NCBI GenBank assembly: GCA_964013565.1
Contig: CAXGWU010000001.1
Span: 93,601 to 157,600 of the forward strand
Length of the DNA: 64,000 bases
Direction of reading: 5' to 3'
Source: an uncultured Oligoflexia bacterium
GTDB taxonomy: Bacteria > Bdellovibrionota > UBA1018 > UBA6935
The translations under genes and the position numbers were made by a program. The notes under the pieces were generated by a model. The model was given only the letters and a program-made list of their open reading frames with translations. It made no database searches and was not told the DNA's origin. This document shows, in pieces, positions 6,120 to 52,861 of the stretch; the stretch's first letter is position 1; each line of letters begins with the position of its first letter.

Positions 6120-8230
6120 GAGAGTTTAGATTTCATTTGTTCTAAAAAAGAAGACACCTTCTGTTCGTGTGCTTCTCGAAGAACTTGGCTTGAAAGATCA
6201 GGTGTAGATGAGACATCTTCTGTGAAAATTAAGTTTCCGGGTATTTCTGATAGGAATCGAGAAGGGTACCGAGGTACTGGTTTCCCGTATCGAATTCTAT
6301 TTTTTGCACGAGTCAGATAGAGTTTTTCTTTTGCACGAGTGATTCCAACGTAGCAAAGACGACGTTCTTCACTATAGTCTGTTGCTTCATCCATGACTCT
6401 TTGATGAGGAAGGTAACCATCCTCCATTCCCACTAAAAAGACAGTGGGGAATTCTAAGCCTTTTGAGCCATGTAAAGTCATGAGTGTCACTTCGTCTTTT
6501 TCCTTACTTTCCTCTTCTTCGCTTTCTTCTTCGGCATCAAGAGTCAATCGAGTGATGTATTCTCTTAAAAACATAAAGCTGTTTTCAGCAGGTTCTTCAA
6601 GTTTCATCTGTCCAAGGCCATGTGCGAGCTCTTGAACCATTTCCCATCGCTGAGATGCTTGTAGGGCATCATCAACGTCGTTTTCTATTCCAGTTCTCAT
6701 TCCTATCCATTCAAAAGTTTGCCTTGCCCAGTCCGCCATAGCCGTTGGTTCAGGCTCAATCTTTTCTAATGCGTTTCTCATCTTTTGGATAAGAGAAGCG
6801 AAGGTCATGACCGCTTGTTTGGGTTTAGTCTTTAAGTCTGCATCAGGAATTGACTCAAAAAAAGAACATTGGTTTTCTACTGAATGGCTATGAATGGTGT
6901 CGATGGTTTTTTTCCCGATTCCTCTTGCAGGCCAATTAATGATTCTTCGAAGTGCAGTTTCTTCATCTGGATTTAAAATCGTTTTCCAGTAACTGAGGGT
7001 ATCTTTGATTTCTTTTCGGTCTAGAAAAGAAAAAGATCCAACTAAACGATAAGGAATCCCTTTCATTCGGAGTGCTTCTTCGAAATGTCTACTTTGTGGA
7101 TTGGATCGAAATAGAATTGCAAAATCACTCCAGTTCATGAGTGTTTTGACTTCCCCTCCCTCGTGTTTTTTTGCGAGATCAAAAATTCGCTCGGCTACGG
7201 TAGTTGCTTCGTCATGATCATCTTCAGTTAAGATGAGTGTTATCGGAGGTCCATCTTCTTTTTGAGACCAAAGCGACTTAGGGTGCCTAACCGAATTATT
7301 TTGAATAACTTGATTTGCGGCATCTAAAATAGTTTGTGTGCTTCGATAATTTTGATCAAGAGTTACTGTTTTTGCTCCTGGGTAGTGTTTTCCAAAATTT
7401 AAAATGTGGGAAGGATCAGCCCCCCTCCAAGCATAAATAGATTGGTCATCGTCTCCCACCACGCAAATATTTTGTTGCTTTAGGGTAAGGAGTCGAATGA
7501 GTTCAAATTGGGCTTGATTGGTGTCTTGGTACTCATCAACAAGAATGTATTTAAATCGATCATTATAGGCGTCACAGACTTCAGGGTGTTTTTTTAATAA
7601 ATCAACAGCGTTGAATAATAAATCGTCAAAGTCCATCGCATTCATGGCCCGAAGTTGATCTTGATACTCCGGATAGGTGGTTGCCATTTCTAAAGCAATT
7701 GGAGAGGATGCCTCATTTCTAGCTGAATTCATAAAAAAAGCTTCAGATTGATGAGGGGGAATAAATCTGTTTTTTGCTTGTCCAATTCCAAACAAGATAA
7801 AAGAAGGATCGAACTTTTTATCATCCACACTATTTTTTCTTAGAATTTTTCTGATGATCTCAATTTGATCATTTTGATCTAAAATAGAAAATTGTGAAGT
7901 GTATCCTAAGCGACTCGCTTCTTGTCTTAAGATTTTAACGCAAAGACTATGAAAAGTAGAAACAGTTAGTCCTTGTGTTCTTTTTTGTGTGATTTTTCTC
8001 ACTTCTGAATAAACGCGGTCTCTGAGTTCTCCAGCAGCCTTATTTGTAAAGCTAAGTCCTAATATTTGGCGCGGAGAGACCTTCTTTTGAGTAATCAAAT
8101 GAATCATTCGATAGGTCATTGTGCTGGTCTTTCCACTCCCTGCTCCTGCTAGGACAAGAAGGGGACCTTCTTCGTGGAGAACGGCTTGGCGTTGATTTGG
8201 ATTGAGTTTTTTTAAGTACTTCGTTTGCAT
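6116..8230 (-). CDS. uvrD: ATP-dependent DNA helicase, UvrD/PcrA/Rep family
   Basis: Walker A AGAGSGKTSTMTYR, motifs DEYQDTNQAQ, QNYRST and a C-terminal VGITRAKEKLYL helicase signature. Confidence 0.85.
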   Translation of the reverse strand: MQTKYLKKLNPNQRQAVLHEEGPLLVLAGAGSGKTSTMTYRMIHLITQKKVSPRQILGLSFTNKAAGELRDRVYSEVRKITQKRTQGLTVSTFHSLCVKILRQEASRLGYTSQFSILDQNDQIEIIRKILRKNSVDDKKFDPSFILFGIGQAKNRFIPPHQSEAFFMNSARNEASSPIALEMATTYPEYQDQLRAMNAMDFDDLLFNAVDLLKKHPEVCDAYNDRFKYILVDEYQDTNQAQFELIRLLTLKQQNICVVGDDDQSIYAWRGADPSHILNFGKHYPGAKTVTLDQNYRSTQTILDAANQVIQNNSVRHPKSLWSQKEDGPPITLILTEDDHDEATTVAERIFDLAKKHEGGEVKTLMNWSDFAILFRSNPQSRHFEEALRMKGIPYRLVGSFSFLDRKEIKDTLSYWKTILNPDEETALRRIINWPARGIGKKTIDTIHSHSVENQCSFFESIPDADLKTKPKQAVMTFASLIQKMRNALEKIEPEPTAMADWARQTFEWIGMRTGIENDVDDALQASQRWEMVQELAHGLGQMKLEEPAENSFMFLREYITRLTLDAEEESEEEESKEKDEVTLMTLHGSKGLEFPTVFLVGMEDGYLPHQRVMDEATDYSEERRLCYVGITRAKEKLYLTRAKNRIRYGKPVPRYPSRFLSEIPGNLIFTEDVSSTPDLSSQVLREAHEQKVSSFLEQMKSKLS

Positions 8231-8310
8231 GGACGATCTTTACTTTAAGGATACGCGGTGCGCTAATCAATCAGAATTCCTTGATTTTATAAGAATCAAA
8301 AAGGAAAAGT

Positions 8311-9795
8311 TTATCGTTTACTGTTAAAAGACAAAAATACACGATTGCATTTTAAATTTTCCCAGCTTTTTTGGTGATCTTGATAAGATTTCACAAGGTT
8401 ATCCAGTATTCTGTTTTTGAAAGGAGCCTTTTCAGAGAAAATTCTTGTTACTTTTTTGCTTGTCATTGAAATTTTTTGAATCAATGTAAAAAGGGTTACC
8501 GAAGGCTGAACGTCTCTTAGAACAGTATTGAGAATGTTTTCAAATTCTTTAGAGGAGATTTTCTTGTTTTTTCGTGCTACGGCTGTTTGTTCAAGAACGA
8601 GAAGAGGGATCCAGCGGTTTTTATAGTTTTTTGAAATTCTATGATAGAATTCAAAAAATTTAGAAATATCTTGTTTTTTACTTTCTTTGTTGAATGGTTT
8701 GTAAAAATTAGCAATTTCAGAATTGATAGATTCAATGTTTATTTTTTCTTTTTCCATTTTTAAAAGTAAATCTTCTTCATAATTCTTTTTTGAGATTCTT
8801 TTTTTTGTCCTATTCTTGATTTTGAATTGGTAGCCTAGCGCTTGAGCTTTTTTTATGACTTCCGCTAAAAAAGAATCGCTTGTAACAAGTTCGTAAATCG
8901 CTTTTTGATATCTAAGGAGATTCATTCTTACATCCGAAGACTTGGGGCCGAGTGACTTGGCGTAGCTATGATTGTTTTTATCTGTTGTAATTTCTGCAAA
9001 GCTTTGATTCCACGCGCCTACATAATGTTCATATCCAACTTCAGCAAACTTTGTTGAGACTTGATCATAGTAGTGAAGAGGAACGATGTTTTTATGATAT
9101 TCTGTTTGATCTGCTTGTTCTAAATTTTTTAATGTAGTTTCTTGAATTTTTCTTTTTTCCTTTAGTTCATATATGGATTCTCGAAAGGTTGGGGCAACTA
9201 CGCCTATAAAATAAAGTCGAGAAATGATGTCTTTGAGGTTTCCCCCGGAGTTTTCGTAGAGTCGGTACATTGCAGCAAGACAAGCTCGTCCTTGTCGTCC
9301 ATTTCCTTTAGAAACGGTGTCTACGAGTATGAGAGGTCTACCATTCATTCCATTTTTTAAGTCAAACCCTTTGCTTTTAAAAAGGCTATAGATTTGTTCG
9401 TCTGTAGGGTTGAATTTTGGACTAAAATCAGGATCCATTCCAAAAGTTGCTTTACTCATCCCCACTCTAATTACTTTATTGGGTTCTCCGATGCTATTGA
9501 AAAACCCTTCAATAATATCTGAAAATATTAGACTATCTCGACCTAAGAAGCCAAAAACTGCGTCTGGATAGATAAAAGATAAATGAGCGATAAATCTTGG
9601 TGCCTCTTTTTCTATAAATTGAAACCAATCAGGAAAAGGATTGTTTCCAGGAATTTCTTTTAAAACAGATTCCACCTTCTTCATAGATGGTCTTACGTTT
9701 TGATTGATTAAATTATTAATATCTTGGTCTTTTTGAGTCCAAGATAACATAGGAGAAAATAAGATAAGTAAGGCAATATATATTTTTGTTTTCAT
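8311..9795 (-). CDS. secreted hypothetical protein; member of an FxGRD / hhhDxSxxG paralog family
   Basis: Signal peptide MKTKIYIALLILFSPMLSW. The N-terminal region (…FGFLGRDSLIF… LILVDTVSKGNGRQGRACLAAMYRLYE…) is alignable with 13234-15192 and 16931-18463. Last gene of the seven-gene secreted operon. Confidence 0.55.
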   Translation of the reverse strand: MKTKIYIALLILFSPMLSWTQKDQDINNLINQNVRPSMKKVESVLKEIPGNNPFPDWFQFIEKEAPRFIAHLSFIYPDAVFGFLGRDSLIFSDIIEGFFNSIGEPNKVIRVGMSKATFGMDPDFSPKFNPTDEQIYSLFKSKGFDLKNGMNGRPLILVDTVSKGNGRQGRACLAAMYRLYENSGGNLKDIISRLYFIGVVAPTFRESIYELKEKRKIQETTLKNLEQADQTEYHKNIVPLHYYDQVSTKFAEVGYEHYVGAWNQSFAEITTDKNNHSYAKSLGPKSSDVRMNLLRYQKAIYELVTSDSFLAEVIKKAQALGYQFKIKNRTKKRISKKNYEEDLLLKMEKEKINIESINSEIANFYKPFNKESKKQDISKFFEFYHRISKNYKNRWIPLLVLEQTAVARKNKKISSKEFENILNTVLRDVQPSVTLFTLIQKISMTSKKVTRIFSEKAPFKNRILDNLVKSYQDHQKSWENLKCNRVFLSFNSKR

Positions 9796-9797
9796 TT

Positions 9798-11288
9798 CTA
9801 TTTTCCTCTCATGAGTGCAATTGCATCTTCTTCTGAATCAATAAGATGAATTCTTCTTTTTAACCATTCAGGGTAATGATCAGAGATTAAGTTTTTAAGT
9901 AACGGTTTATAGAATTCGCTATTTATAAAAGCTAATTGAGAGCGCTTATTTGGATTTCCAGAAAAATCAACAAAAGTTGTTGCTAGTTCTTTCATCGTTC
10001 CATTGCCTCCAGGTCCTACAAAAATAAGGTCTTTGTCGTGCAGTAAAAAAGGAATTCGTGTTTCATAATCCATTGATTCAATGACAAATCTTTTATTGCT
10101 AAAAGAATAAGATTTCCCAATGATAATATCGATGGCAGTTCCTCCATTATCAATGCTTGCATTTGCTGCGGCTTCCATGAGGCCACCCCCCCCACCGCTT
10201 GATAAGATATATTTATTTTTTGCAGAAACTTTAGCTACGAGTTGAACTAGTTGTCTCCAGCGATAGTCAAACGAACTAGACCCAAAAAAAACCGCTTTTT
10301 TATGATCTTTCAAACTTTCAGAAATATAATCTATATCTTCAATTCCAGCTAAGTAATTAGAGATGATTAATTTAAAACTATAATCAAATTGATGACTAAA
10401 CTTTTCTTCGTTGAAAGGAATAATGCTTTTATATCTATTGGGACCCGGAGTAATAAAACTTAAGTCATTTTTAATTTTTAAGTATGAAGACTTAAATTTT
10501 CCTAATGCTTTGAAATTTAAAAAGTCTGAATCCCATTCATTTTTATAGTTAATGAGGAAATCTAGTTTATCGATTAAATGAAGAGCTAAGGCTGTAACAG
10601 AACGAGTATCACCTACTGACTTTCCTATAGAAAAAGCTTTAAGTCTTAAGTAAGGATTTTCAATTGCAATGATGTTTTCATTTAAATTTTCTTTATTTGG
10701 GTCCGCAGTAATGCCTACTCCAAGTTTCCCTAATGTTTTTTGTATATCTTTCGCTGATATTGAATCTGCATCGTAGAAAAATATTTGAGAAAAATTAGAT
10801 AGTGTTTTTTTGAGTGAATTGAGATCGACTGTGGTTGGGTAATCGGTGGTTCCAAAAAGAAGAGTGTATGGATTCATATTGGAAAACGAATCTAACCACT
10901 TAAATCTCATAAGATCTGAAAGAAATGATTTTGATTGATCTTTTCTATCTAATTTAAAAATTTCCTCTATTGATAATTCTTGAGGTTTACTACTTTTTGA
11001 TGGAAGTTTTCTATTCTTGTTTTCGTAATGACTATTGGAATAACCTTTATAAGAATATGGGCTGTCTGTATCTAGACTTGTAACTGGAGATTGATAATCA
11101 AATTGGTATGTGTTGTTAACAGCAATCTCACTTATATCAGGAACTTCATCAATTTTAGGTGGTTTGATTCCGTGAATTCCAAAAACTAAAGCGCATTGAG
11201 AAGAAAATAAATGGTCCAAATTAGAAGTAGCGTTGGATGTTAATGTATAGATGATACCTACTATAGATATCAAAAAAAGATTTTTCAT
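9798..11288 (-). CDS. secreted protein with a C-terminal LOG-family (TIGR00730-like) domain
   Basis: Signal peptide. The C-terminus carries AVFFGSSS… ILSSGGGGGLMEAAANASIDNGGTAIDII… RIPFLLHDKDLIFVGPGGNGTMKEL, which matches the LOG GGGxGLMxA and PGGxGTxxE motifs. Overlaps the upstream gene by 4 nt. Confidence 0.65.
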   Translation of the reverse strand: MKNLFLISIVGIIYTLTSNATSNLDHLFSSQCALVFGIHGIKPPKIDEVPDISEIAVNNTYQFDYQSPVTSLDTDSPYSYKGYSNSHYENKNRKLPSKSSKPQELSIEEIFKLDRKDQSKSFLSDLMRFKWLDSFSNMNPYTLLFGTTDYPTTVDLNSLKKTLSNFSQIFFYDADSISAKDIQKTLGKLGVGITADPNKENLNENIIAIENPYLRLKAFSIGKSVGDTRSVTALALHLIDKLDFLINYKNEWDSDFLNFKALGKFKSSYLKIKNDLSFITPGPNRYKSIIPFNEEKFSHQFDYSFKLIISNYLAGIEDIDYISESLKDHKKAVFFGSSSFDYRWRQLVQLVAKVSAKNKYILSSGGGGGLMEAAANASIDNGGTAIDIIIGKSYSFSNKRFVIESMDYETRIPFLLHDKDLIFVGPGGNGTMKELATTFVDFSGNPNKRSQLAFINSEFYKPLLKNLISDHYPEWLKRRIHLIDSEEDAIALMRGK

Positions 11289-13237
11289 TTTATGTCCCCA
11301 ATAAAATTTTTCTCACATTTTTCCTCAATATCTCCATTAATTACTTCTTTTATAAATGTTTTTTTTATGTGAAGAGATTGAGCCCATTTATTTCCGAGTT
11401 CATCTAAATAGAGGAGTCTAGTTTCGGTATCTGTGGTTGTCGGAATGAGATGACCGTAGTACCAAAGGCTCCACGTTCCATTGTGAAAATATAAACTATC
11501 TGGAGTTAAACCGTGAATATATAGATTTAAATGAACTAGATGATCAAAAAAATCCGCAAGTGCTGTCCATGCAATTGTTTCATGAATTGGAACCGCTGCT
11601 TTATTTGAAAGCTCTCTTAAAGAAACTCCTTGTGGTTCATCTATCGCAACAAAATAAAGACTGTTTCTTATCTTAGAAACAATAATTCTATTCTCTTGTA
11701 GGTGCAATAGCTCATAGTATGAAGGTGTTCCTGGGTCAAACCTAAAGATCACTTGTTTTAAATTTTTTTCTTTTTGAATGATTTCATATTTTTTCAATTC
11801 TCCAATGTTCACTTTTTTTGGCGAAGAATTAATAAAAGGAGGCTCTTTTTTTATGTCATTATTTTCATAATTTAATTCATTACTTTTTTTTCGTCTTTTC
11901 TTTTTGGGACCTTTTGAATGATTTTGGAAGTTTTGTTTATCTAGTAATTCTTTCCAAAATAAATCAATTTCTTTTTTTTTGCTTTTAAGTTCTTCTCTTA
12001 ACCATTTTGTTTTTAGTTTGTTTGAGTATTCATTTAGAGTTCTATGTTTGCTGAAAAAAGTTCTAATTGGTCCGCTATCAACTATTTGCCATTCTTTTCC
12101 ATCAAAAATAAGATTGTCAGGGTTTAATCCGGAGACATAAATGTATTTTTCAGAAGCTTTAATGAAAAATTTTTCTAGTGCTAATTTTTTTGGGTTATTT
12201 TTTGTGTCTAAAATTTTTTCATCGAGAATCGCTTCTCTTAATCGAGTTCCTTCAATGAAATTCATAAGTAGAGACTTTTTATCTGTACTCCATTTCACAT
12301 TAACTGAAGACAGACCGTTTTTTCTCCATTCTTCTGATAGCTCTATCTGTTTTTTGAAACTTTTTTGAATATCCGCACTATCGTTTACTGGAACTTTCCA
12401 AGCCCATAGTTCTCCATTTGAGTCCTTTAACTGATGAACTCTACCTGTTTTTCCAACGCCTACGGCTTCTTTTTCTAATGAGTAACCTTCCGGAATATCG
12501 ACCTCTTTAACTGAGTTAATGAGAGCTAATAATTTTTCCCAGTTTTTTTCTTCAATCAAATCTTTGGCATTTTGTAAGAACTTTCTCCTTTGGCTAACTT
12601 CGGTAATGGTATTGGCTTTTTTTAGAACTTGAAAATGAATTGGTTCGAGATCAATTTTTGGGAAAACATACCGACTCAATCGCCTGAGAGTTTTTGTGTT
12701 TGCTCGGCTTGTGATAATCCAAATTAATTCAAAATCATCTCTATAAGAGGATAGAGGAAGGATATGTTTTGTAAAAGATTCTAATTCATCTAATGGTATG
12801 ATCGCTGCTGTATAACGAAGAGAAGGAAGTAAATTTTTTTCATTACTTTGAGTGAATAGTTTAAAGAGTGTAGAAAAGTTATAAATTTTTTTGTCGCTTA
12901 AAATGCCAATTAGAACATTGTTATTGTTTTTTCCTTTTTCTGAATGCAAATATTGATTAATAATGATGTCTCTTAGACAGAAACTTTCTGTCGCTAGTTT
13001 AATATAAAATTTATCAGGTGGGTTGTTTTGTGATTTAATGATTTCATCAATGATAGCTATATTCATCGCTTTATATTCATTGCTTTTCGCCAAAGATAGT
13101 TTTTTTATAACCTGAGAAATCGCCTCCCACTGTTGATTTTCGATTAGTTTTTTGAGTCGATGTGGAACCACGGTTTGAGCATGTGCTGGTATGATAAAAA
13201 ACAGACAAGCTAAATATAAGAAAATTTGTTTTTTCAT
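11285..13237 (-). CDS. secreted protein with tandem protein-kinase-like domains (atypical, possibly pseudokinase)
   Basis: Signal peptide. Domain 1: Gly-rich loop VGVGKTGRV, Lys in WAWKV, loop SGLNPDNLIF, and DSG. Domain 2: HGLTPDSLYF. Both lack a canonical HRD Asp. Confidence 0.5.
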   Translation of the reverse strand: MKKQIFLYLACLFFIIPAHAQTVVPHRLKKLIENQQWEAISQVIKKLSLAKSNEYKAMNIAIIDEIIKSQNNPPDKFYIKLATESFCLRDIIINQYLHSEKGKNNNNVLIGILSDKKIYNFSTLFKLFTQSNEKNLLPSLRYTAAIIPLDELESFTKHILPLSSYRDDFELIWIITSRANTKTLRRLSRYVFPKIDLEPIHFQVLKKANTITEVSQRRKFLQNAKDLIEEKNWEKLLALINSVKEVDIPEGYSLEKEAVGVGKTGRVHQLKDSNGELWAWKVPVNDSADIQKSFKKQIELSEEWRKNGLSSVNVKWSTDKKSLLMNFIEGTRLREAILDEKILDTKNNPKKLALEKFFIKASEKYIYVSGLNPDNLIFDGKEWQIVDSGPIRTFFSKHRTLNEYSNKLKTKWLREELKSKKKEIDLFWKELLDKQNFQNHSKGPKKKRRKKSNELNYENNDIKKEPPFINSSPKKVNIGELKKYEIIQKEKNLKQVIFRFDPGTPSYYELLHLQENRIIVSKIRNSLYFVAIDEPQGVSLRELSNKAAVPIHETIAWTALADFFDHLVHLNLYIHGLTPDSLYFHNGTWSLWYYGHLIPTTTDTETRLLYLDELGNKWAQSLHIKKTFIKEVINGDIEEKCEKNFIGDIK

Positions 13238-15192
13238 TTTTTAAGGTTTCCAGGTGTTCCAAATAGGATTTGACATGTCGAAGTACTGTTAGAACTAAAG
13301 CTCTTATTTTTACGACTGTCATGATAAAAGAACTCTTTTAAAAAATTCATATCTGAAAGCATTTCAGTTTGAGTTTTGTCTGTAAAAAAATAAGTATAAA
13401 ATCCTTTATTGAGACGTGGAGTGTAGTCTACATTAACAATTTGCTCAGCGTTATCGACCTGAAAATTTGCGGCTTTGAAGTCTAACCAAATGTTTTGTTC
13501 TGCTGCAATTTTTTTTGCGATAAGCCATTGTTCCAATACCTGGTTTTTTATTTTTTTCGGTATTTCTTCAATTGGATTTTGAGAATATTTTGCTTCTAAG
13601 TTTTTTCCGTCAAAGTAAGTTTGTTCTACAATTACCCCTGTTGGATGTGCATAAAGTATTTTTGCATGCCTAAAATTTGGATAATTTTTTAGAATTCTAT
13701 CTTGTGTCCATTTTTGCAAAAGAGATTTACGTGCATTTTTTGGGTTTTTTGTAATTTTAATAACTCTATTTTTATCACTTAAAAATACTTGTACATTTCT
13801 ACCTTCTCCTAGATATCCTTTTAACTTATAGAGGACTGCATTATTAGAGGTTAGAACCATTGGGTAATTTGGATCATCGCTTTTTTTGATTTCCAGAGAT
13901 GAAAAAAAGTCATTTGCTCCCTCTAATGGTTCCAGATATTGCCAATCTTTCATAGCACTGAAGCCTTTTTGATGGACTTCAGATATTTCCTGAAATAAGA
14001 GTTCGTTTTTGTTTAAGTCTTTTTTGTTTTTTCTTATTTTTTCTTGATTTTTAGTGGTCTTCTTTTTTACTGGAATAATTGTTTCAGCAAGTCGTAGATC
14101 AGATACTAGTCCAAGGAGTGATATAACTTTTTGAGATAGTTTTATAGGTTTGTCACTATAAATATGAAGTGACGGTTTTGTTTTAAATTTTAGTCCTGTT
14201 TGTATAAACTTATGACGATGCTCTAGTAGATTGTGAACATGATCAGCATCCCAGTGATTAATTGCTCCTGGAATAGCGATTTGAAATCGTTGAATAGAAA
14301 AAAAATAATCAGTTTCGGTGAGTTTTTTAATAGTCTCTGAAGAGAGTTCTTCGTTGTTCCTGGTGTAATTGTTGATAATATCTTTAAAAGAAGAGTTTCC
14401 ATCTACTCTTTTTGATCTCAAATATCTGAAATCTACAAGTTTCAGGAATTGAGTTGCTTCAGATTTATTTAGGTTTTCACAAATGGCTCTTAAAATTGCT
14501 CTGGGAATTTTTCCAGACATACTTGAATCCATAAATACTAAGCCATTTTTTAATAATCTCTCTTTTGTTAGTCCGATGGAATTTAATAAATGGTAAATTT
14601 CAGAAGTTTGATGGTTGAAGATTAAGTCTCTTATTTTCCTTGATACATTAAGGGTGTAAAGAAAATTTTTATCTATAGATTTTTTTAAAGAGATAAAAAG
14701 ATATGGAGCCGTAAAGTCTCTTCCTATAAAAAATAAATTTTTATTATTAAAATCTCTTTTGATTTCATTTTCTATTTGAGCGATTACAGGAATGATGACT
14801 TCTGTTTCGTATTCTTGAGTGTAACGAATAAGTTGATCTGTTATTTTTTTAGAATCAATTGAATCTAAAGAAACAACACCGATTTTTTTGTCTAATTCAA
14901 GAGCACTATTTTTAAGTTTTGAGCGTTTATTTGACCAATGAAAAAAGAGTTCATTGAAAAACTGAGTTTTTTCTTGAGTCGTTAGAGTTTTAACTTCTTC
15001 TAAAATTAAATAGATGTCATTACGAATTGACTCTAAAATATCGGTTTGAATCCATTTTTTAAGAAATTCATCGTAGCTATTAGAGTTTTGGGCTTGAAGA
15101 GCTGATTCATAGTGATTTTCTATTACATCGCTGGAAAATACATTAGTCTCAGTAAAGCAAAATAATAGAATAAATAAAATTAATTTATTCAT
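13234..15192 (-). CDS. secreted protein with an N-terminal FxGRD-family domain and a C-terminal protein-kinase-like domain
   Basis: Signal peptide. N-terminus has NLFFIGRDF… VFMDSSMSGKIPRAILRAICE, paralogous to 8311 and 16931. C-terminus has LGEGRNVQVF (Gly loop), VIKITK (Lys), DFKAANFQV (catalytic-loop-like D..K..N) and VNVDY. Confidence 0.55.
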   Translation of the reverse strand: MNKLILFILLFCFTETNVFSSDVIENHYESALQAQNSNSYDEFLKKWIQTDILESIRNDIYLILEEVKTLTTQEKTQFFNELFFHWSNKRSKLKNSALELDKKIGVVSLDSIDSKKITDQLIRYTQEYETEVIIPVIAQIENEIKRDFNNKNLFFIGRDFTAPYLFISLKKSIDKNFLYTLNVSRKIRDLIFNHQTSEIYHLLNSIGLTKERLLKNGLVFMDSSMSGKIPRAILRAICENLNKSEATQFLKLVDFRYLRSKRVDGNSSFKDIINNYTRNNEELSSETIKKLTETDYFFSIQRFQIAIPGAINHWDADHVHNLLEHRHKFIQTGLKFKTKPSLHIYSDKPIKLSQKVISLLGLVSDLRLAETIIPVKKKTTKNQEKIRKNKKDLNKNELLFQEISEVHQKGFSAMKDWQYLEPLEGANDFFSSLEIKKSDDPNYPMVLTSNNAVLYKLKGYLGEGRNVQVFLSDKNRVIKITKNPKNARKSLLQKWTQDRILKNYPNFRHAKILYAHPTGVIVEQTYFDGKNLEAKYSQNPIEEIPKKIKNQVLEQWLIAKKIAAEQNIWLDFKAANFQVDNAEQIVNVDYTPRLNKGFYTYFFTDKTQTEMLSDMNFLKEFFYHDSRKNKSFSSNSTSTCQILFGTPGNLKK

Positions 15193-16880
15193 CTTTTATT
15201 CCTCTTTTTATTAAAGAAATAAATTTCTTCATCTAAAAGGCCAAAGCTGAAGAGGGTCTCTATAGTGATTTTTAATTCAAAATCGTTTTTGACAAAATGA
15301 ATTCTATCTTTAATGAATTGCGGAATTGATGAGCTGTCGATTTGATTTTTTAAGCCACTGTAATAGTCATCACCCACAAAAATGATCTCTAATTTTTCTT
15401 TTGGGTTTTCTAGAAGTTTTAGAATCGTTATCCAAAATTCTTTCATGGTTCCAGAGCCTCCTGGAACAAAAACAACAAGTTGTTTTTCGTGAAGAAGGAG
15501 AGGGATTCGGGTTTCATATCCACTACTCGAAACGGTAAGAGAATGATGTTCTTTTTCTACTTTTTTTTCTGTTTTTAGAGTGTGTTTACCCGTGATAGGG
15601 ATCCCAACTGATGGAACATGAGATGATATTGCTGCAGTATTTGAAGTTTTCATGGCACCGCCAGCTCCGCCAGTCGTGATGCTAATATCAAGAGATCCTA
15701 AGGCGAGACCAGATTTGAAAATAAGGTTCTCAAAAGGATTCTCATCCCTTCCCGTTCCAAAAACTGCAGCTCCTCTTACTCCTGTTAAATCTTCTTGTCC
15801 GATTAGAAGTTCAGTAACTTCTTTGACGATATGATCAATTTGATAATCAGAAAGGTCTGAAAGAGTTATTTTTTTTGGTTTAAATTGTTTTGTAATTATT
15901 GGGAAAATTTCTGTCTCAACGTGAGGAGAGGTACGAATAGGCTCTCCTGCAAGGTCAAATTCTTGATTAAAGTAACTTTTACTGTAGATAGGAGATGAAG
16001 GGATTTTTTTAATCGCTGTAGTAACGGTTGTAGCTTGATCAAAAATAGGTATTTCTTTAGTTCGAACTCCCATGTTTATGTTCATAAGATCTAAGTCTTG
16101 TTTCCATTGATGAAGAGAAAAGTTCCATTCTTTTTTTGGATCAAAAATAATGTCTATTTCATTATTGAATAATCCCGCAAATCCAGTTGTGGAGTCAGGA
16201 GTTGTAATTATTTTTTCCGAGGTGTTAAATAAAGCCTGTGCTCTTAAGTAGGTGTTTTTAATGTAAACTTGGCCTCTTTGTTTTGTTGGTTGATTAGAGA
16301 TACCAAAAGATGATTTTTGAGCTAGAGATTGAATTAGTTTAGCGTAAGGACTATTTGATTCGTAGAGGATAAAATATCCACGAGAAATAAATTGAGAAAC
16401 TAATTCGGTCAATTCAGTTTGCATTTGAGGATCAGGCTGTGTTCCAGAAGTCCCTGCAAGAATCGTCACTGTTTGTTTTGAATTTAGTTTTTTTAATCTT
16501 TCTAGGTTGAGGTGATCTTGAATGTACTGACCTTCAGTAGTTAATAATACCAATTCAAGTGCTTTTAGGTTTTTTTCTCTGTTTGTTTTTTTTAGACGTT
16601 GAATCTCTGAAGTTATTTGAGCTATTTGCTTTTTTACCGATTGATTTTCTTTTTTTCCAGAATTACTAAAAATTTTTTTTAGTAATCCTCTTTGTTTTTT
16701 AGAAATTTTTTTAGTATTTAAAGACGTTAATTTTTTTTCTAATTCTTTAATCCGTTCTGACTCCTGATTTAGACTAGTTAGTCGTTCTAATGTGGATAGA
16801 CGACTTAAAAAATTTTCTTCACATCCGGCTAAAGAGAAGTGATGGGCAATTAAAGTTAAAATAATAATAAGTTTTTTCAC
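15189..16880 (-). CDS. lipoprotein with a C-terminal LOG-family domain
   Basis: Lipobox LAGC after the signal peptide. C-terminus has AAVFGTGR… ISITTGGAGGAMKTSNTAA… RIPLLLHEKQLVVFVPGGSGTMKEF (LOG motifs). Paralogous over this domain to 9798-11288. Confidence 0.65.
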   Translation of the reverse strand: MKKLIIILTLIAHHFSLAGCEENFLSRLSTLERLTSLNQESERIKELEKKLTSLNTKKISKKQRGLLKKIFSNSGKKENQSVKKQIAQITSEIQRLKKTNREKNLKALELVLLTTEGQYIQDHLNLERLKKLNSKQTVTILAGTSGTQPDPQMQTELTELVSQFISRGYFILYESNSPYAKLIQSLAQKSSFGISNQPTKQRGQVYIKNTYLRAQALFNTSEKIITTPDSTTGFAGLFNNEIDIIFDPKKEWNFSLHQWKQDLDLMNINMGVRTKEIPIFDQATTVTTAIKKIPSSPIYSKSYFNQEFDLAGEPIRTSPHVETEIFPIITKQFKPKKITLSDLSDYQIDHIVKEVTELLIGQEDLTGVRGAAVFGTGRDENPFENLIFKSGLALGSLDISITTGGAGGAMKTSNTAAISSHVPSVGIPITGKHTLKTEKKVEKEHHSLTVSSSGYETRIPLLLHEKQLVVFVPGGSGTMKEFWITILKLLENPKEKLEIIFVGDDYYSGLKNQIDSSSIPQFIKDRIHFVKNDFELKITIETLFSFGLLDEEIYFFNKKRNKR

Positions 16881-16930
16881 CGTTTATTTAGTCCTTTTTT
16901 AAAAGTAAGATTTGCTTTTTTTAAAATGAT

Positions 16931-18463
16931 TTATTTTTTATCTATTTGTGTAAAAATTCGATTACATCCAGTTTTTGTAAGATAATCTGAGATGGTTTTA
17001 GTGTGTTCCGAAATTTTCCCTCCAAATTTGTCGGAGTTTTTAAATTCATCTTCTCTTTTTTCAAACATAGATCTGAATTTTTCATCGTTTTCATAAAGCT
17101 CCCGAATAGCTTTTAGTTGATCGTCAGAAAGAGAAGGAGTGTTGCCTAGGACATAACGATAAAGTCGTTTATAATCTCTTCCTTTAATTTTCTGAGAAGC
17201 TCTTGCTCTAGTGATAGCCTGCATAAATGGGACAATGATTTTGTCTTTAAAATCTGTATTTTGAAATTGCTTTAACCATTGAAGGTAGTGATTTCCGTTG
17301 TTTGAGAGTTTGTTTGTGATTTCTCCGGGTTCATTTAAAGATTGTTCTATTTCAAAAAGGTTTTTTAGATGTTCTTTAAGTTGTTCTTGTTTTTTCTCTT
17401 CTTGAAGAGCTAATTCTTTTTTTCTTTGTTTTTTTCTTTCATTGATTTGTTGTGACGTTAGTGATTGATAAAGTTTTGAATTTCCATCTAAATCAATTTT
17501 ATAGAGTTTTAGATATTCATCTAATTTGTCTTTAAATTCATTAGATTTAATGAGTTCGATAATTATATAAATTTCTTGTAAAACAGTTTTTTTTGAAATA
17601 TTCGAAAATTGCACGCCAGAAATTGGAATAAGTTTTTCGTTTATTTCTTTAAAACCTAGCCATGAATCATGCCACTCTGAAGTCCTATGATTTATCCTAA
17701 AAAAAGTTCCATAACTTGTGCTTAATCGTGGAACCGGTACGCCGTCTATATGAGATAGTGATGATACGTTTTCGAAAAAGTTTTCCTGATCAAAGTCTTC
17801 GTTGATAGTATGTTTTAGGTTGTTGTCGCTAATATTAACAAACGCAATTTTTCCAAGAAGATCTTTTGGGTCTTTTCCTAGATTTTTGTAGGTTTCATAG
17901 AGATATCTCATCGTTAGCCTGGATTGGCTTGCTTCTCCTCCTCCTCCTCCACTGGTATAAGTTGGGCTATAGCTACTAAAATCATAGAGAACCCAAGGGG
18001 CACTTTCTGTAATGGTATCGAAGTTAATGCCTAGAGACTGAGCATATCGAACAATGGTTTCTGAGGAAGAGTTTTTAAAACTTGGAGTACTTGCGTTGAA
18101 TCTTCCTGCGCGATTAGGCTCACCTCTCAGATAGTAAAACGCTTCCAGGGCTAGACTATTTTGGATGACATCTCTTCCAAGAGAAAAATATCTTCCTCCA
18201 GGAAAGGCTTTTTCAAAACTTACAATCATTCTGGCGATATTGTTTATAGCATTAGGGTAAGCATTAGCGATAAACTCTTGATTAAGCATTTTTTCATGAC
18301 TCGGCCATGGGTTGAGTACAGTGAGCATTTCTTCGATTGTGGGAACTGTTTTTTTTTGTACTAACTCATCAATTTGATTTTCTAATTGTGTTTGATCAGA
18401 AAAAGCAAAAGAAATGAAAAGAAAGTGGAGGCTAAAAAAAATAGATTTATTTATGAGTTTCAT
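16931..18463 (-). CDS. secreted hypothetical protein; FxGRD / hhhDxSxxG paralog family member
   Basis: Start chosen at the internal Met (MKLINKSIFFSLHFLFISFAFS signal peptide) so that it abuts rather than overlaps the Prs-like gene. Carries RYFSLGRDVIQ… WVLYDFSSYSPTYTSGGGGGEASQSRLTMRYLYE. Confidence 0.5.
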   Translation of the reverse strand: MKLINKSIFFSLHFLFISFAFSDQTQLENQIDELVQKKTVPTIEEMLTVLNPWPSHEKMLNQEFIANAYPNAINNIARMIVSFEKAFPGGRYFSLGRDVIQNSLALEAFYYLRGEPNRAGRFNASTPSFKNSSSETIVRYAQSLGINFDTITESAPWVLYDFSSYSPTYTSGGGGGEASQSRLTMRYLYETYKNLGKDPKDLLGKIAFVNISDNNLKHTINEDFDQENFFENVSSLSHIDGVPVPRLSTSYGTFFRINHRTSEWHDSWLGFKEINEKLIPISGVQFSNISKKTVLQEIYIIIELIKSNEFKDKLDEYLKLYKIDLDGNSKLYQSLTSQQINERKKQRKKELALQEEKKQEQLKEHLKNLFEIEQSLNEPGEITNKLSNNGNHYLQWLKQFQNTDFKDKIIVPFMQAITRARASQKIKGRDYKRLYRYVLGNTPSLSDDQLKAIRELYENDEKFRSMFEKREDEFKNSDKFGGKISEHTKTISDYLTKTGCNRIFTQIDKK

Positions 18464-18464
18464 T

Positions 18465-19850
18465 TTATTTAATCTTTCTGCGTATAAATAACGTTTTACA
18501 AAGTGGAGTCTTTTTTTCTCCTGAAAATACAGACTGTAAAGTTTCCGAAATTTCAAAACCTAAATTTAAAACTGATATATCTGGCTGAGTAATGTTAAAT
18601 GAATTCGTCACAACCATGAGATCAATGTCTGGCGAGTCAATTGCTTTTTGAGCGTTTCCTGCAAGATGGCTAACAACACCAAATATCTTATTTGCACCAT
18701 GCTTTTTAAGAAACTCTGCTGACTCGGCAAGTGTTCCTCCAGAGGCAGTTTCGTCATCAACAATCGCTACAGTATGCCCTTTTACAGAGTCTCCACTAAT
18801 CCCGAGAATACGAGTCTCTCCAGTGAGAGGATTTCTTTTCTTATTGATAATTGCGAGGGGTAGGTGAAGTTCTTCTGCATATAAAGTAGCATCTTTTTGA
18901 AAACCAGCGTCAGGAGAAACGATAATAGAAACTCCCAGTTTCTTGAGTTCTTTATTGATTGTTTCTCTTCCGTTGATTTCAAAAACAGGGATAGAAAAAA
19001 AACCTACACTCTGAGGTGCATGCGGTCTTACAATTGTTATTGTTTTTACTCCTAGTCCCTCAATGAGGTCAGCAGTGAGTCTTCCTGTTACAGTAATTCC
19101 AAATTGATCTATCTTATCTGATCGAGCATAAGGAAGGTAGGGAGAGATCAGGTGAACTTGTTGCCACTTTGATTGAGTGCTATATATTTTATGTAAAGTA
19201 TCAAAAAATGATTTGTTTATTGGAGACTCAAGAGAAGATACATAAAATATATTGTATCCAGAGAGCTTTTTATTGTTGGGGTTCCATTCAGATTCTTGAA
19301 TGACTGGGATATTGAGTTGTTTTGATAAGGTGTCTCTCAATGAAGGGTTTGTGTCTCCTACAATTGCAAACTTTTTTTTAAAATTTTTTGTTTTTGTTTG
19401 ATATTCTGGAAAGTCATAATCTTGGTTTGCAATACGGTAAGATTCCGCCCCCGAAATTTTGAAAAGTTTTAATACAAAAGTTGAAGGTAAGGATTCAGAT
19501 TCAAAATGAACGGATATTGATAAGGCACCCATTGTTTTAGCGGTGCGAACTTTAATGAGAGCTTCCATAAGAAGGTCATCATGATCTTCAATGTTGTTTG
19601 GAATATACAGAGTTAGTTTCTGATTGATAGGATTTTTTAAAAATCGAACAAAAGTATTTCCGTTGCTAAACTCCGTTGTTTTTGTCGGAAGAATTTTACT
19701 TTCAATAGTTTCAGAATACGATTGAGTCTTTGCCTCATATCCACGAATTCCAACAAGCCATGGCTTTTTAGAAGCGATACAAACATTTGAAAAGCTAAAG
19801 CTTAAAAGAAATAAAAGTCCAAATTGTATTTTTTTTTGTGCCCCACCCAT
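18465..19850 (-). CDS. secreted ribose-phosphate pyrophosphokinase (Prs/PRPP synthetase) homolog with an N-terminal extension
   Basis: Signal peptide MGGAQKKIQFGLLFLLSFSFSNVCIA. Matches Prs landmarks: FAIVGDTNPSLRDTL…, ISPYLPYARSDK (cf. PYFGYARQDRK), RPHAPQSVGFFSIPVFEING (cf. DLHAxQIQGFFDIPVDN), IVSPDAG, AIINKKR, and PRPP loop VAIVDDETASGGT. The first ~130 aa look like a degenerate extra Prs N-half. Confidence 0.7.
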   Translation of the reverse strand: MGGAQKKIQFGLLFLLSFSFSNVCIASKKPWLVGIRGYEAKTQSYSETIESKILPTKTTEFSNGNTFVRFLKNPINQKLTLYIPNNIEDHDDLLMEALIKVRTAKTMGALSISVHFESESLPSTFVLKLFKISGAESYRIANQDYDFPEYQTKTKNFKKKFAIVGDTNPSLRDTLSKQLNIPVIQESEWNPNNKKLSGYNIFYVSSLESPINKSFFDTLHKIYSTQSKWQQVHLISPYLPYARSDKIDQFGITVTGRLTADLIEGLGVKTITIVRPHAPQSVGFFSIPVFEINGRETINKELKKLGVSIIVSPDAGFQKDATLYAEELHLPLAIINKKRNPLTGETRILGISGDSVKGHTVAIVDDETASGGTLAESAEFLKKHGANKIFGVVSHLAGNAQKAIDSPDIDLMVVTNSFNITQPDISVLNLGFEISETLQSVFSGEKKTPLCKTLFIRRKIK

Positions 19851-47659: not shown

Positions 47660-48553
47660 TTATTCAAGCGCCCAATCAAAAATTCCATGGATTCTTAATC
47701 TTCTGACTTCTTCTTTGAGTCGATCTACTTCAATTTGAAGGTCTTCGATTCTGTTGATGAACGTTGAAGCCGTAAAAAACAGGGTTTCAACGTCAATGCT
47801 TATTTGAAGAAGTGCTTTTGAGTGATTTTGCAATAACACTCGATAGTAAATTCGGGCATTTTTGAGTTCATCAATACGGTAGTTATCAATACTTAAGGCG
47901 AGATCAAAAAGTTCTTTTTCAGTAGATTCAATAATGTCGAGTTGAGTGCTTTCTAAGAGTTCAAATGGGTTGAGATAGTTTCTTCTTAAATGTTCAATGA
48001 TGAATGCGTCAATTCCCCCAATGATTCCACCTGTAAGATAGACTTGAGTTCTACCAATGAGGGTTTTTGGAAGCTCATGAGAGACAACCTTCAGTCGTCG
48101 AGAGAATTGCTCTAGGTTTGTCTTTCCTGCAGAAACCCAAGCAGATTTTTTAAATAAACCACGAGTCCATTTAAATCCATAAAACAAAGTCCAGTATACA
48201 GCAATATCTTTAAAGATAATCATGACGGGATGACGTTTCTCTTGTTCATCCAGTTCTCTTTGAATCATTGATTGTATTTGAGAGAGAAGTAAAACGGTAT
48301 TTGCTCGGTCAATCGGATTCCAGCGATAATGACTTATTAAATTAAGAAGCGTTTCATTAAAATCTTCTTTTGAAAGAGATTTAATTCTTCTGGAGAGAGC
48401 ACGGGCATGTCTGAGTTGTAGATCTTCACTCGAGGGAGAGTCGTTTTCATTTGATGAATAAGTATTAAAATAATCTTGAATCATTTGATCTGACCAAGGA
48501 GCTGCATAAGAAAATCCATGAAATAAAAAAATTCCTAATAAAAATTGAATCAT
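47660..48553 (-). CDS. hypothetical secreted protein
   Basis: Signal peptide MIQFLLGIFLFHGFSYA (start at the internal Met). No known motif. First of three co-directional AT-rich genes. Confidence 0.45.
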   Translation of the reverse strand: MIQFLLGIFLFHGFSYAAPWSDQMIQDYFNTYSSNENDSPSSEDLQLRHARALSRRIKSLSKEDFNETLLNLISHYRWNPIDRANTVLLLSQIQSMIQRELDEQEKRHPVMIIFKDIAVYWTLFYGFKWTRGLFKKSAWVSAGKTNLEQFSRRLKVVSHELPKTLIGRTQVYLTGGIIGGIDAFIIEHLRRNYLNPFELLESTQLDIIESTEKELFDLALSIDNYRIDELKNARIYYRVLLQNHSKALLQISIDVETLFFTASTFINRIEDLQIEVDRLKEEVRRLRIHGIFDWALE

Positions 48554-52649: not shown

Positions 52650-52861
52650 GGAGTTTTTATAACGCAATAAGTCATTGTTTTCAATGAAGAAGGTTCGTAG
52701 GGCCTTTGATTCAAATTTCAGGTTCGACCCATGCATTTATTTGAAATTACTATTAAAATTGTAACGATTTAGTCTGGAACTTCGAATAAGTTCTATTACA
52801 GGCGAAAAATAGTACTTCTAAAAAGGAAAGTTTGTTTCGATTGACTCGATTATCAATCTTT

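What the first reader, a model, noticed from the sequence alone, without database searches (positions are those of the whole stretch)
9798..11288. Secreted protein with a C-terminal LOG-family domain (first of two paralogs)
The last ~180 aa carry the diagnostic LOG/TIGR00730 motifs (GGGGGLMEAAANASIDNGGTAIDII and VGPGGNGTMKEL, with a preceding VFFGSSS). The N-terminal ~300 aa are unassigned. Characterised LOG-family enzymes (cytokinin-activating LOGs, the E. coli nucleotide 5'-monophosphate nucleosidase PpnN) act in the cytoplasm. A signal-peptide-bearing version inside a secreted-protein operon is unusual.
Basis: partly seen in the sequence, partly recalled or inferred. Interest (0 to 1): 0.7.

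Follow-up and report, generated by a model that had tools for sequence, protein, structure and literature searches.

The report
Exported two-domain LOG-like phosphoribohydrolase
This gene encodes an exported protein whose C-terminal half is an intact LOG-type nucleotide-cleaving domain. It belongs to an undescribed family in Bdellovibrio-like bacteria that sits in a conserved operon of exported, apparently ATP-using enzymes, including a PRPP synthetase look-alike.

Summary

The "unassigned" N-terminal part is a disordered linker followed by a second Rossmann-like domain (aa 118-262). This domain has the same strand/helix order as the LOG domain but lacks the Gly loops and the Glu. It is probably a degenerate duplicate.

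An exhaustive HMMER search found 129 clusters at E<=1e-30, most matching both domains, and about 80% of the members checked have leader peptides. Named genomes are all Oligoflexia or Bdellovibrionaceae MAGs.

The neighbours are conserved across independent contigs: an exported PRPP-synthetase homologue, an unknown exported family, and kinase-like proteins. The unknown family tentatively resembles PRPP-dependent ribofuranosyltransferases.

Best reading: an exported phosphoribohydrolase in a PRPP-centred effector module that acts where ATP exists, probably inside another cell. Activity, substrate and destination are all inferred. It is a new variant of a known kind.

The parts
9798..11288 (-). 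Gene E: exported two-domain SLOG protein, 496 aa (the finding)
   Evidence: ORF list. Identical to a MAG protein named hypothetical protein CL678_04840, Bdellovibrionaceae bacterium.
11229..11288 (-). Signal peptide, aa 1-20 (MKNLFLISIVGIIYTLTSNA), predicted cleavage after SNA
   Evidence: Hydropathy 2.45 over 12 aa, no other TM-like segment. AF2 helix 2-19 followed by disorder.
10938..11228 (-). Disordered linker, aa 21-117, with a single Cys at 32
   Evidence: pLDDT below 50 for aa 25-98. Length and sequence are variable in the family.
10503..10937 (-). N-domain, aa 118-262: Rossmann-like, probably a degenerate SLOG duplicate. Motifs LLFGTT 143-148, YDADS 172-176, ENPYLRLKAF 210-219, S230
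   Evidence: pLDDT above 90. The strand/helix order is the same as in the C-domain. hhalign of N against C (60 sequences each) gives local E 0.0018, probability 14.7%, 124 collinear columns. G146, D173, N211 and S230 are at least 90% conserved. No Pfam match.
10314..10502 (-). Inter-domain segment, aa 263-325, ending in a long helix 303-325 that corresponds to the extra N-terminal helix of type-II LOGs
9801..10313 (-). C-domain, aa 326-496: LOG-type phosphoribohydrolase domain
9987..10013 (-). PGGNGTMKE, aa 426-434: phosphate-binding loop and catalytic Glu434
   Evidence: Aligned to 170-PGGFGTLDE-178 of CgLOGII. P426, G427, G428, G430, T431 and E434 are at least 90% conserved.
10056..10058 (-). 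Codon of Arg411 (YETRIP), equivalent to the catalytic and ribose-binding Arg of LOGs
   Evidence: Aligned to Arg155 of CgLOGII. Arg in 58/60 members.
15189..16880 (-). Gene B: paralogue, 563 aa, same two-domain architecture, lipoprotein-type leader (LAGC)
   Evidence: BLASTP 1e-28. PF03641 33.1 bits, above threshold. Lipobox read from the sequence.
18465..19850 (-). Gene G: exported PRPP-synthetase homologue, 461 aa. Leader, an extra degenerate Pribosyltran_N-like segment, then a complete PRS core
   Evidence: Pfam Pribosyltran_N 3.7e-16, Pribosyl_synth, Pribosyltran. PDB 7pn0 6.5e-29 with the HxPQ, PDAG, KKR and DDETASGGT motifs aligned. Leader.
16931..18463 (-). Gene A: exported protein of the unknown 'A/F' family. 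The likely true start is the internal ATG that yields MKLINKSIFF...
   Evidence: BLASTP to F 1.7e-15. Leader begins at the internal Met.
8311..9795 (-). Gene F: exported 'A/F' family protein, 494 aa. Invariant G85-R86-D87, S114, D159, Q168
13234..15192 (-). Gene C: exported 652 aa protein. The N-half is A/F-like (FFIGRD ... LVFMDSSMSGK) and the C-half is kinase-like (LGEGRNVQVF, VIKITK, DFKAANF)
   Evidence: Motifs read from the sequence. Full-length orthologues in L007 (1e-109) and L005. Pfam gives only ABC1 at E 0.09.
11285..13237 (-). Gene D: exported 650 aa kinase-like protein
   Evidence: PADLOC PD-T4-6 E 9e-6. Orthologues L005_4576 and L007_2084 hit Pkinase at E 3.6e-6 and 2.3e-5, below threshold.

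Best explanation
Gene E encodes a Sec-exported enzyme. After the leader and a floppy linker come two Rossmann-like SLOG-type domains joined by a long helix. The C-terminal domain is a working LOG-type phosphoribohydrolase. It holds the 5'-phosphate with the GSS and PGGxGT loops and the ribose with Arg411. It cuts the bond between ribose C1' and a nitrogen base using Arg411 and Glu434, releasing ribose 5-phosphate and a free base. The base pocket is not the adenine/cytokinin pocket of studied LOGs, so the substrate is probably another nucleoside 5'-monophosphate or phosphoribosyl N-glycoside. The N-terminal domain is most likely a degenerate copy. It would take the place of the second subunit of a LOG dimer and shape or gate the active site, as proposed for the PAG2 domain of PpnN. 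The protein works together with its conserved exported neighbours. A PRPP-synthetase homologue can turn the released ribose 5-phosphate plus ATP into PRPP and AMP. The A/F family may transfer phosphoribose from PRPP, and kinase-like proteins are also present. Because several partners need ATP, the module most likely acts inside another cell (prey or host), where it would drain or rewire the nucleotide pool. Shown: architecture, fold, conserved catalytic residues, leader peptides, conserved neighbourhood. Inferred: activity, substrate, coupling to PRPP synthesis, site of action.
For: LOG fold and motifs. All residues that bind phosphoribose or catalyse in CgLOG/CgLOGII (Ser of GSS, PGGxGT backbone and Thr, Arg, Glu; PMC4979012, PMC5379747) are present and at least 90% conserved in 60 members. 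Base-contacting positions differ: Phe152/Met96 becomes Tyr408 (56/60); Lys156/Lys100 becomes Ile412 (51/60); Asp177/Glu121 becomes Lys/Arg433 (52/60). Two-domain model with pTM 0.80. N/C collinear hhalign with R215 aligned to R411 and a five-residue gap opposite GTMKE. PpnN precedent for a degenerate second LOG-like element (PMC6717881). Family of 129 clusters at E<=1e-30, most matching both domains. Leaders in 93/114 members. Conserved neighbourhood across the window, the P0002 contig, L003, L004, L005/6 and L007/8: A/F next to SLOG2 in 5 of 7 loci and PRS-like in 4 of 7, twice directly upstream. G keeps the PRS catalytic motifs, and its orthologues keep the leader. A RelA_SpoT protein with a leader lies beside the cluster in L007.
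Against: No activity data exist for any member. The target falls below the PF03641 and TIGR00730 cut-offs. It departs from its own family consensus at SIGIP (AIDII in the target), so E could be less active than paralogue B. The N-domain/SLOG relationship is weak by sequence (probability 14.7%; no Pfam hit). The PRPP-transferase reading of A/F rests on a low-confidence model (pLDDT 63.9), and Foldseek and a PDB profile search do not support it. A Sec leader only takes a protein to the periplasm, and no route into another cell was identified. The organism's lifestyle is inferred from the names of MAGs only.
Confidence: 0.5

Rival explanations
1. Nutrient scavenging. The enzyme sits in the producer's periplasm or in the invaded prey compartment and splits nucleoside monophosphates from degraded RNA into free bases and ribose 5-phosphate for uptake. 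It has no effector role.
For: Same chemistry as the best explanation. The Sec leader and the lipoprotein paralogue B fit a periplasmic or envelope location. From memory, not checked here: Bdellovibrio was reported in the 1970s to degrade part of prey ribonucleotides to base and ribose moieties.
Against: This does not explain why a PRPP-synthetase homologue and kinase-like proteins with leaders are conserved partners, since the periplasm lacks ATP. It also does not explain the multi-copy, fast-diverging family with long disordered linkers.
Confidence: 0.2
2. Eraser or self-protection enzyme. The A/F proteins phosphoribosylate a nitrogen on some target using PRPP. The LOG-like proteins hydrolyse that same N-phosphoribosyl bond, either to protect the producer's own envelope or to recycle the mark.
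For: PRT-type transfer and LOG-type hydrolysis are chemically opposite. SLOG2 and A/F genes are adjacent, and both are present in more than one copy in most loci. Paralogue B is lipid-anchored. The base pocket is not nucleobase-typical.
Against: The A/F fold assignment is tentative. No target is known. LOG enzymes described so far act on small nucleotides (PMC4979012, PMC5379747).
Confidence: 0.15
3. Non-catalytic sensor. Like the SLOG domain of Thoeris ThsA, the domains bind a nucleotide-derived ligand and regulate partner proteins instead of cutting anything.
Confidence: 0.07
4. Producer of a secreted modified purine signal, as proposed for Bordetella BpLOG (6-O-methylguanine) or for bacterial cytokinins.
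For: BpLOG is a type-II LOG predicted to be exported, and its product is found in supernatants (PMC6864091). The closest structural relatives are type-II LOGs.
Against: The adenine and prenyl pocket residues are replaced. No isopentenyltransferase or base-modifying gene lies in the conserved cluster. The two-domain architecture and the partner set are different.
Confidence: 0.05

Closest known systems
Type-II LOG phosphoribohydrolases (CgLOGII Cg1261, PDB 5wq3; Thermus TT1465, PDB 1wek)
   Different: Those are single-domain cytoplasmic hexamers with Phe/Lys/Asp adenine contacts (PMC5379747). Here there is a leader peptide, a second degenerate domain in the same chain, Tyr/Ile/Lys-Arg at the base contacts, and scores below the TIGR00730 and PF03641 cut-offs.
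BpLOG (BP1253) of Bordetella pertussis
   Same: A type-II LOG described as a predicted exported protein, so it is the only precedent found for a LOG outside the cytoplasm (PMC6864091).
   Different: Single domain. Its location was only predicted, from a putative TM helix. It has no PRS, A/F or kinase partners, and it is linked to 6-O-methylguanine and oxidative stress.
PpnN (YgdH), nucleotide 5'-monophosphate nucleosidase
   Different: No PAG1 or PAG2 homology: the NF038390 model gives no hit for E and 15.8 bits against a cut-off of 450 for B. PpnN is cytoplasmic. In PpnN the partial LOG-like element (PAG2) lies C-terminal to the catalytic core, whereas here a complete Rossmann-like domain lies N-terminal to it.
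SLOG cluster 4 (Pfam PF18306)
   Same: The only curated model that the target passes (32.5 against 26.3 bits). 57 of 60 family members match it.
   Different: PF18306 is a broad, uncharacterised bin. It says nothing about export, the N-domain or the partner genes.
PRPP-dependent ribofuranosyltransferases (CriT of Bcs3, PDB 8a0c; Thermobacillus enzyme, PDB 7shg), for the neighbouring A/F family
   Different: Low-confidence model. Foldseek and sequence profiles find nothing. CriT enzymes are cytoplasmic and are paired with a HAD phosphatase, which is absent here.

Membership tests
LOG / PF03641 / TIGR00730 phosphoribohydrolases | Rossmann-like SLOG fold | tested here: met
LOG / PF03641 / TIGR00730 phosphoribohydrolases | PGGxGTxxE motif | tested here: met
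   PGGNGTMKE at 426-434. Conserved in at least 56/60 members at each fixed position.
LOG / PF03641 / TIGR00730 phosphoribohydrolases | Catalytic Arg and Glu (Arg155/Glu178 of CgLOGII) | tested here: met
   R411 and E434 align to them in the HMMER alignment to 5wq3 (residue roles from PMC5379747). 58/60 members each.
LOG / PF03641 / TIGR00730 phosphoribohydrolases | Score above the curated family cut-offs | tested here: not met
   PF03641 25.3 against 27 bits. TIGR00730 28 against 96.35 bits. Paralogue B passes PF03641 at 33.1 bits but not TIGR00730.
LOG / PF03641 / TIGR00730 phosphoribohydrolases | Adenine-binding residues (Met/Phe, Lys, Glu/Asp before the catalytic Glu) | tested here: not met
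   Tyr408, Ile412 and Lys433. The family has K28/R24/Q5 at position 433 and Ile in 51/60 at position 412.
LOG / PF03641 / TIGR00730 phosphoribohydrolases | Phosphoribohydrolase activity on AMP or cytokinin nucleotides | not testable with these tools
   Needs an enzyme assay.
LOG / PF03641 / TIGR00730 phosphoribohydrolases | Homodimer (type I) or hexamer (type II) with the active site near the interface | not testable with these tools
pTM 0.80 suggests a fixed N/C arrangement.
SLOG cluster 4 (PF18306) | Score above the Pfam gathering threshold | tested here: met
   32.5 against 26.3 bits, aa 345-438. 57/60 members match.
PpnN (NF038390) | PAG1 (DUF4478) and PAG2 (DUF3412) domains flanking the nucleosidase core | tested here: not met
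   No DUF4478 or DUF3412 hit. NF038390 is absent for E and scores 15.8 against 450 bits for B.
Sec-exported proteins | N-terminal n-h-c signal peptide with small residues at -3/-1 and no further TM segment | tested here: met
   MK / NLFLISIVGIIYTLT / SNA|T, with no other TM-like 19-mer. This is a rule-based reading only, because no SignalP was available. Paralogue B has a lipobox, LAGC.
Known anti-phage defence systems (PADLOC) | Significant match to a defence protein model | tested here: not met
   E gets only E 0.0025-0.007 chance-level hits. All partners carry export leaders, which does not fit an intracellular defence role.

The most novel reading that the evidence does not exclude
Bdellovibrio-like bacteria export a self-contained PRPP pathway. 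The LOG-like hydrolase makes ribose 5-phosphate from the victim's nucleotides. An exported PRPP synthetase burns ATP to make PRPP and AMP, and the AMP can feed back into the hydrolase. CriT-like A/F enzymes then phosphoribosylate a target, with kinase-like proteins (and, in one related locus, a RelA/SpoT-like protein) alongside. This would be the first PRPP-based effector system acting outside the producer's cytoplasm, and a new way to collapse a cell's ATP and nucleotide pool.
Probability: 0.2. Interest if true: 0.85.

Novelty: new variant of a known kind. Interest (0 to 1): 0.66.

Why it matters
LOG and PpnN enzymes are known as cytoplasmic housekeeping or hormone-making enzymes. This work defines a sizeable, unannotated family in which the same catalytic core has three new features. 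It is exported, it is fused to a degenerate copy of itself, and it is locked into a conserved operon with an exported PRPP synthetase and other ATP-dependent enzymes. All named genomes come from the predatory Bdellovibrionota/Oligoflexia lineage. If the module acts in prey or host cells, it would add nucleotide and PRPP chemistry to the known arsenal of bacterial predators. It would also give directly testable candidates: seven genes, clear catalytic residues and simple assays. Even the conservative reading gives Pfam's SLOG cluster 4 a concrete architecture, context and hypothesis.

Tried and rejected
- **Word-indexed homologue search.** It found only 3 relatives for the whole protein, 1 fragment for the N-domain and 4 for the A/F family. 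The family became visible only with the exhaustive HMMER search.
- **hhalign of N- against C-domain with 4 sequences.** No signal (probability 0.15%). With 60 sequences it gave a weak, collinear match.
- **Pfam on ten isolated N-domains at E up to 10.** No recurring family. A PDB profile search with the N-domain also found nothing.
- **PADLOC.** No defence-system membership.
- **PDB sequence searches with C and D.** Nothing. Pfam on their sub-domains gave only ABC1 at E 0.09, so the kinase reading rests on motifs and on sub-threshold Pkinase hits of orthologues.
- **Locus scans.** The genome scan gave 3 loci. The metagenome scan gave one irrelevant locus.
- **Other limits.** The afdb50 fold library was not available. 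Cluster look-up gave no organism names.
- **Considered and rejected.** Lysine decarboxylase (an old misannotation of the family, PMC5379747) and a cytoplasmic membrane-anchored protein (the hydrophobic core is only 15 residues and has an AXA-type site).
Full report
**1. The observation**

The ORF at 9798..11288 (minus strand) is real. It encodes 496 aa from an ATG start, with a GGGGA Shine-Dalgarno-like element upstream, and its start overlaps the stop of the preceding gene by 4 nt.

Pfam places aa 345-438 in PF18306 (SLOG cluster 4) at 32.5 bits, above the gathering score of 26.3. PF03641 ('possible lysine decarboxylase', the LOG family) scores 25.3 bits, just below its cut-off of 27. NCBIfam TIGR00725 (E 2e-10) and TIGR00730 (E 1.6e-6) match, but far below their curated cut-offs. 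So the protein belongs to the SLOG/LOG superfamily without doubt, but it is not a member of the curated TIGR00730 subfamily.

The N-terminus (MK, then a 15-residue hydrophobic core, then SNA|T) reads as a cleavable Sec signal peptide. There is no other membrane-spanning stretch. No dedicated signal-peptide predictor was available, so this is a rule-based call.

**2. The catalytic domain**

A profile of the C-terminal domain from four relatives finds type-II LOG crystal structures best: 9us2, 5wq3, 1wek and 5zi9, at E 1.9e-15 to 1.2e-13. An AlphaFold2 model built on a 60-sequence family alignment is confident (mean pLDDT 82.9, pTM 0.80, above 90 for most of aa 120-496).

Published structures assign the key roles. 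In CgLOG and CgLOGII the 5'-phosphate is held by the PGGxGT backbone, the Thr and a Ser of the first loop. The ribose is held by the Arg, and catalysis needs that Arg and the Glu ending the motif (PMC4979012; PMC5379747). In the HMMER alignment these correspond to S337/S338, P426-T431, R411 and E434. In a 60-member alignment each is conserved in 56-60 sequences.

The base-contacting positions are different. CgLOGII Phe152/Lys156/Asp177 (CgLOG Met96/Lys100/Glu121) correspond to Tyr408 (56/60), Ile412 (51/60) and Lys or Arg at 433 (52/60). I infer that the chemistry (hydrolysis of a 5-phosphoribosyl N-glycoside) is kept but the base is not adenine or a cytokinin.

The target itself deviates from its family consensus in the strand after the Gly-rich loop (AIDII instead of SIGIP). 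Paralogue B does not. None of these positions is among the published ligand contacts, but it leaves room for E being the less active copy.

**3. The 'unassigned' N-terminal 300 residues**

The model shows a leader helix (2-19) and a disordered stretch (25-98, pLDDT below 50). Then comes a well-predicted alpha/beta domain at aa 118-262 and a long helix (303-325) leading into the LOG domain.

The order of elements in the N-domain mirrors that of the C-domain:
- N-domain: b141-144, a156-163, b170-173, a179-189, b190-194, b206-208, a212-219, b223-227, a231-238, b244-246.
- C-domain: b330-335, a342-357, b360-364, a369-380, b384-390, b401-405, a408-416, b421-424, a429-444, b451-455.

The conserved motifs fall at equivalent places:
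- LLxGN and VxFGSS.
- YDADS and TGGxGG.
- NPYLR and GYxxRIP.
- (P)DS and PGG.

Profile-profile comparison with four sequences per domain found nothing. With 60 sequences per domain it gave a collinear 124-column local alignment in exactly this register. R215 falls opposite R411, and a five-residue gap falls opposite GTMKE. The support is weak (E 0.0018 for the single comparison, probability 14.7%).

No Pfam model matches the isolated N-domain in ten members, and none is found in the PDB by sequence. My reading is that this is a degenerate duplicate of the SLOG domain. It has lost the phosphate loops and the catalytic Glu but keeps its own invariant set (G146, D173, N211, S230, and R215 in 52/60). 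This is probable, not proven.

LOG active sites lie next to the dimer interface, and part of the base pocket comes from the partner subunit (PMC4979012). The PAG2 domain of PpnN has been described as resembling part of a second LOG monomer that gates the site (PMC6717881). An in-chain pseudo-partner is therefore a reasonable role.

Some relatives carry two or three copies of the N-domain (P0007, P0015), and short proteins match it alone (P0134-P0136). It therefore behaves as an independent module.

**4. The family**

The word-indexed search of 5.8 billion proteins found only the identical MAG protein ('Bdellovibrionaceae bacterium', CL678_04840) and two distant relatives. The exhaustive HMMER search of 1.84 billion cluster representatives, using a four-sequence profile, found 129 clusters at E<=1e-30. 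Most match profile positions ~140-540, which covers both domains, and most are 500-950 aa long.

Of 114 members of 430 aa or more, 93 have a leader-like N-terminal hydrophobic stretch by a simple hydropathy rule. Many have a Cys a few residues after the predicted cleavage site. Many also have a C-terminal tail with a PR(N/T)xxxEF-like motif that ends in acidic and aromatic residues. The target lacks this tail.

Of the 60 aligned members, 57 match PF18306 and 56 match PF03641 at E<=1e-3. Sources name them at most 'predicted Rossmann-fold nucleotide-binding protein', and every cluster checked is a singleton from metagenomes or MAGs. The genome scan returned only Oligoflexia MAGs. No paper describing this architecture was found.

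**5. The neighbourhood**

In the window, seven tightly packed minus-strand genes run from 19850 to 8311. Four of the junctions are 4-nt overlaps or gaps of 1-2 nt, and every product has an N-terminal leader. G+C is 0.31-0.34, against 0.39-0.40 in the uvrD and ccs genes on one flank and rising to 0.35-0.37 towards thyA on the other. In order, the genes are:

- **G (18465-19850).** A PRPP-synthetase homologue (Pfam Pribosyltran_N 3.7e-16, plus Pribosyl_synth and Pribosyltran; PDB 7pn0 6.5e-29). The PRS motifs HxPQ, PDAG, KKR and DDETASGGT are aligned. It also has a leader and an extra, degenerate N-terminal PRS-N-like segment.
- **A (16931-18463) and F (8311-9795).** Paralogues of an unknown family.
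- **B (15189-16880).** The paralogue of E, with a lipobox.
- **C (13234-15192).** An A/F-like N-half plus a kinase-like C-half, read from motifs.
- **D (11285-13237).** Kinase-like (PADLOC PD-T4-6 E 9e-6). Its orthologues hit Pkinase at E 3.6e-6 and 2.3e-5, below threshold.

The same families recur around SLOG2 genes on independent contigs:

| Locus | Genes around SLOG2 |
|---|---|
| P0002 contig | PRS-like gene overlapping the start of the SLOG2 gene |
| L003 | SLOG2, A/F, A/F, SLOG2, A/F |
| L004 | A/F, A/F, SLOG2, SLOG2 |
| L005/L006 | A/F-like, SLOG2, D-like fused to A/F-like, A/F, C, PRS-like |
| L007/L008 | D, PRS-like, SLOG2, SLOG2, A/F, C; on the other strand a RelA_SpoT protein with a leader, A/F-like, a 1298-aa protein, SLOG2 |

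C and G have full-length orthologues (1e-109 and 5e-102), and the leaders are retained. By phmmer, A/F lies next to SLOG2 in 5 of 7 loci and PRS-like in 4 of 7 (the P0002 contig). L001 carries only SLOG2, with an exported phosphoesterase and an exported unknown protein.

**6. What the A/F family might be**

Motif comparison agrees with this:
- CriT binds PRPP through S678-R679-D680, S707/R708 and E818 plus loop 821-825 (PMC10299916).
- A/F proteins have an invariant G85-R86-D87, an invariant Ser 28 residues later (S114), and an invariant D159 followed by a Gly-rich loop and Q168/R170.

However, Foldseek on the same model finds nothing significant, and a family profile finds nothing in the PDB. 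I keep 'PRPP-using phosphoribosyltransferase-like' as a lead only.

**7. Mechanism and rivals**

*Shown:* an exported, two-domain protein with a structurally and catalytically intact LOG-type domain and a changed base pocket; a large family; a conserved exported partner set that includes a PRPP synthetase homologue.

*Inferred:* E hydrolyses a nucleoside 5'-monophosphate-like compound to base plus ribose 5-phosphate. Ribose 5-phosphate is the substrate of PRPP synthetase, whose other product, AMP, is itself a LOG-type substrate. Together the two could convert ATP into base plus PRPP with catalytic ribose 5-phosphate, and A/F enzymes could spend the PRPP.

PRS-like, kinase-like and RelA/SpoT-like proteins all need ATP, and the periplasm has none. 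The most economical site of action is therefore the cytoplasm of another cell. That fits the Bdellovibrionota/Oligoflexia origin, but the lifestyle of these MAGs is not known, and no delivery route was identified.

Rivals are simple nucleotide scavenging, an eraser or self-protection role against A/F-made phosphoribosyl marks, a non-catalytic sensor, and a BpLOG-like signal producer. Each is weighed in the rivals section.

**8. Comparison and novelty**

The domain works like a type-II LOG or a PpnN core, but it fails the curated TIGR00730 and PF03641 cut-offs and the adenine-pocket test, and it lacks the PpnN PAG domains. The only precedent found for an exported LOG is BpLOG, whose location is only predicted.

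The combination appears undescribed: a leader, a degenerate in-chain duplicate, and a conserved operon with an exported PRPP synthetase. I rate it a new variant of a known kind, with interest 0.66. Confidence in the core reading is 0.5.

Noticed in passing
window 18465-19850 (-): A PRPP-synthetase homologue with an N-terminal leader and an extra degenerate Pribosyltran_N-like segment heads the operon. Orthologues in L005 and L007 keep both features. An exported PRPP synthetase is odd in its own right, because it needs ATP.
   Followed up: partly
   Followed up: partly
window 13234-15192 (-) and 11285-13237 (-): Two exported 650-aa proteins carry protein-kinase-like motifs (Gly loop, VAIK-like Lys, DxKxxN or NPDN, DFG-like). 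C also has an A/F-like N-half. Pfam does not call them, and only their orthologues give sub-threshold Pkinase hits.
   Followed up: partly
window 16821-16880 (-), start of paralogue B: Paralogue B has a lipoprotein-type leader ending in LAGC, whereas E has a signal-peptidase-I type site. The two copies may therefore sit in different places.
   Followed up: no
window 8000-18000: The operon is markedly AT-rich (G+C 0.31-0.34, against 0.39-0.40 on the uvrD/ccs flank). This suggests foreign origin or a strong composition bias of these Lys/Asn-rich exported proteins.
   Followed up: no
family members P0009-P0065 (not in the window): Many relatives end in a conserved tail (PR[NT]xxxEF, then an acidic/aromatic terminus such as DWLW, DYWD or FWD). 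They also have a conserved Cys a few residues after the leader. The target lacks the tail. This could be a secretion or partner-binding signal.
   Followed up: no
L007 13088-14095 (-): A 335-aa RelA_SpoT-domain protein (E 1.6e-9) with a signal-peptide-like N-terminus lies next to the SLOG2/PRS/A-F cluster. It is another ATP-using pyrophosphokinase with an export leader.
   Followed up: partly
window 18464-18556 (-): The mechanical ORF for gene A starts at a TTG that overlaps gene G by about 90 nt. The hydrophobic leader begins at the internal Met (MKLINKSIFF...), so the real start is probably at 18463.
   Followed up: partly
window 48550-52736 (-): A second AT-rich patch (G+C 0.31 at 50-52 kb) holds a 906-aa and a 505-aa ORF with no Pfam match.
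   Followed up: partly
L001 870-1772 (+) and 3678-4811 (+): In the one locus without A/F or PRS partners, the SLOG2 gene is flanked by a leader-bearing phosphoesterase (PF04185) and a leader-bearing 377-aa protein of unknown family.
   Followed up: no
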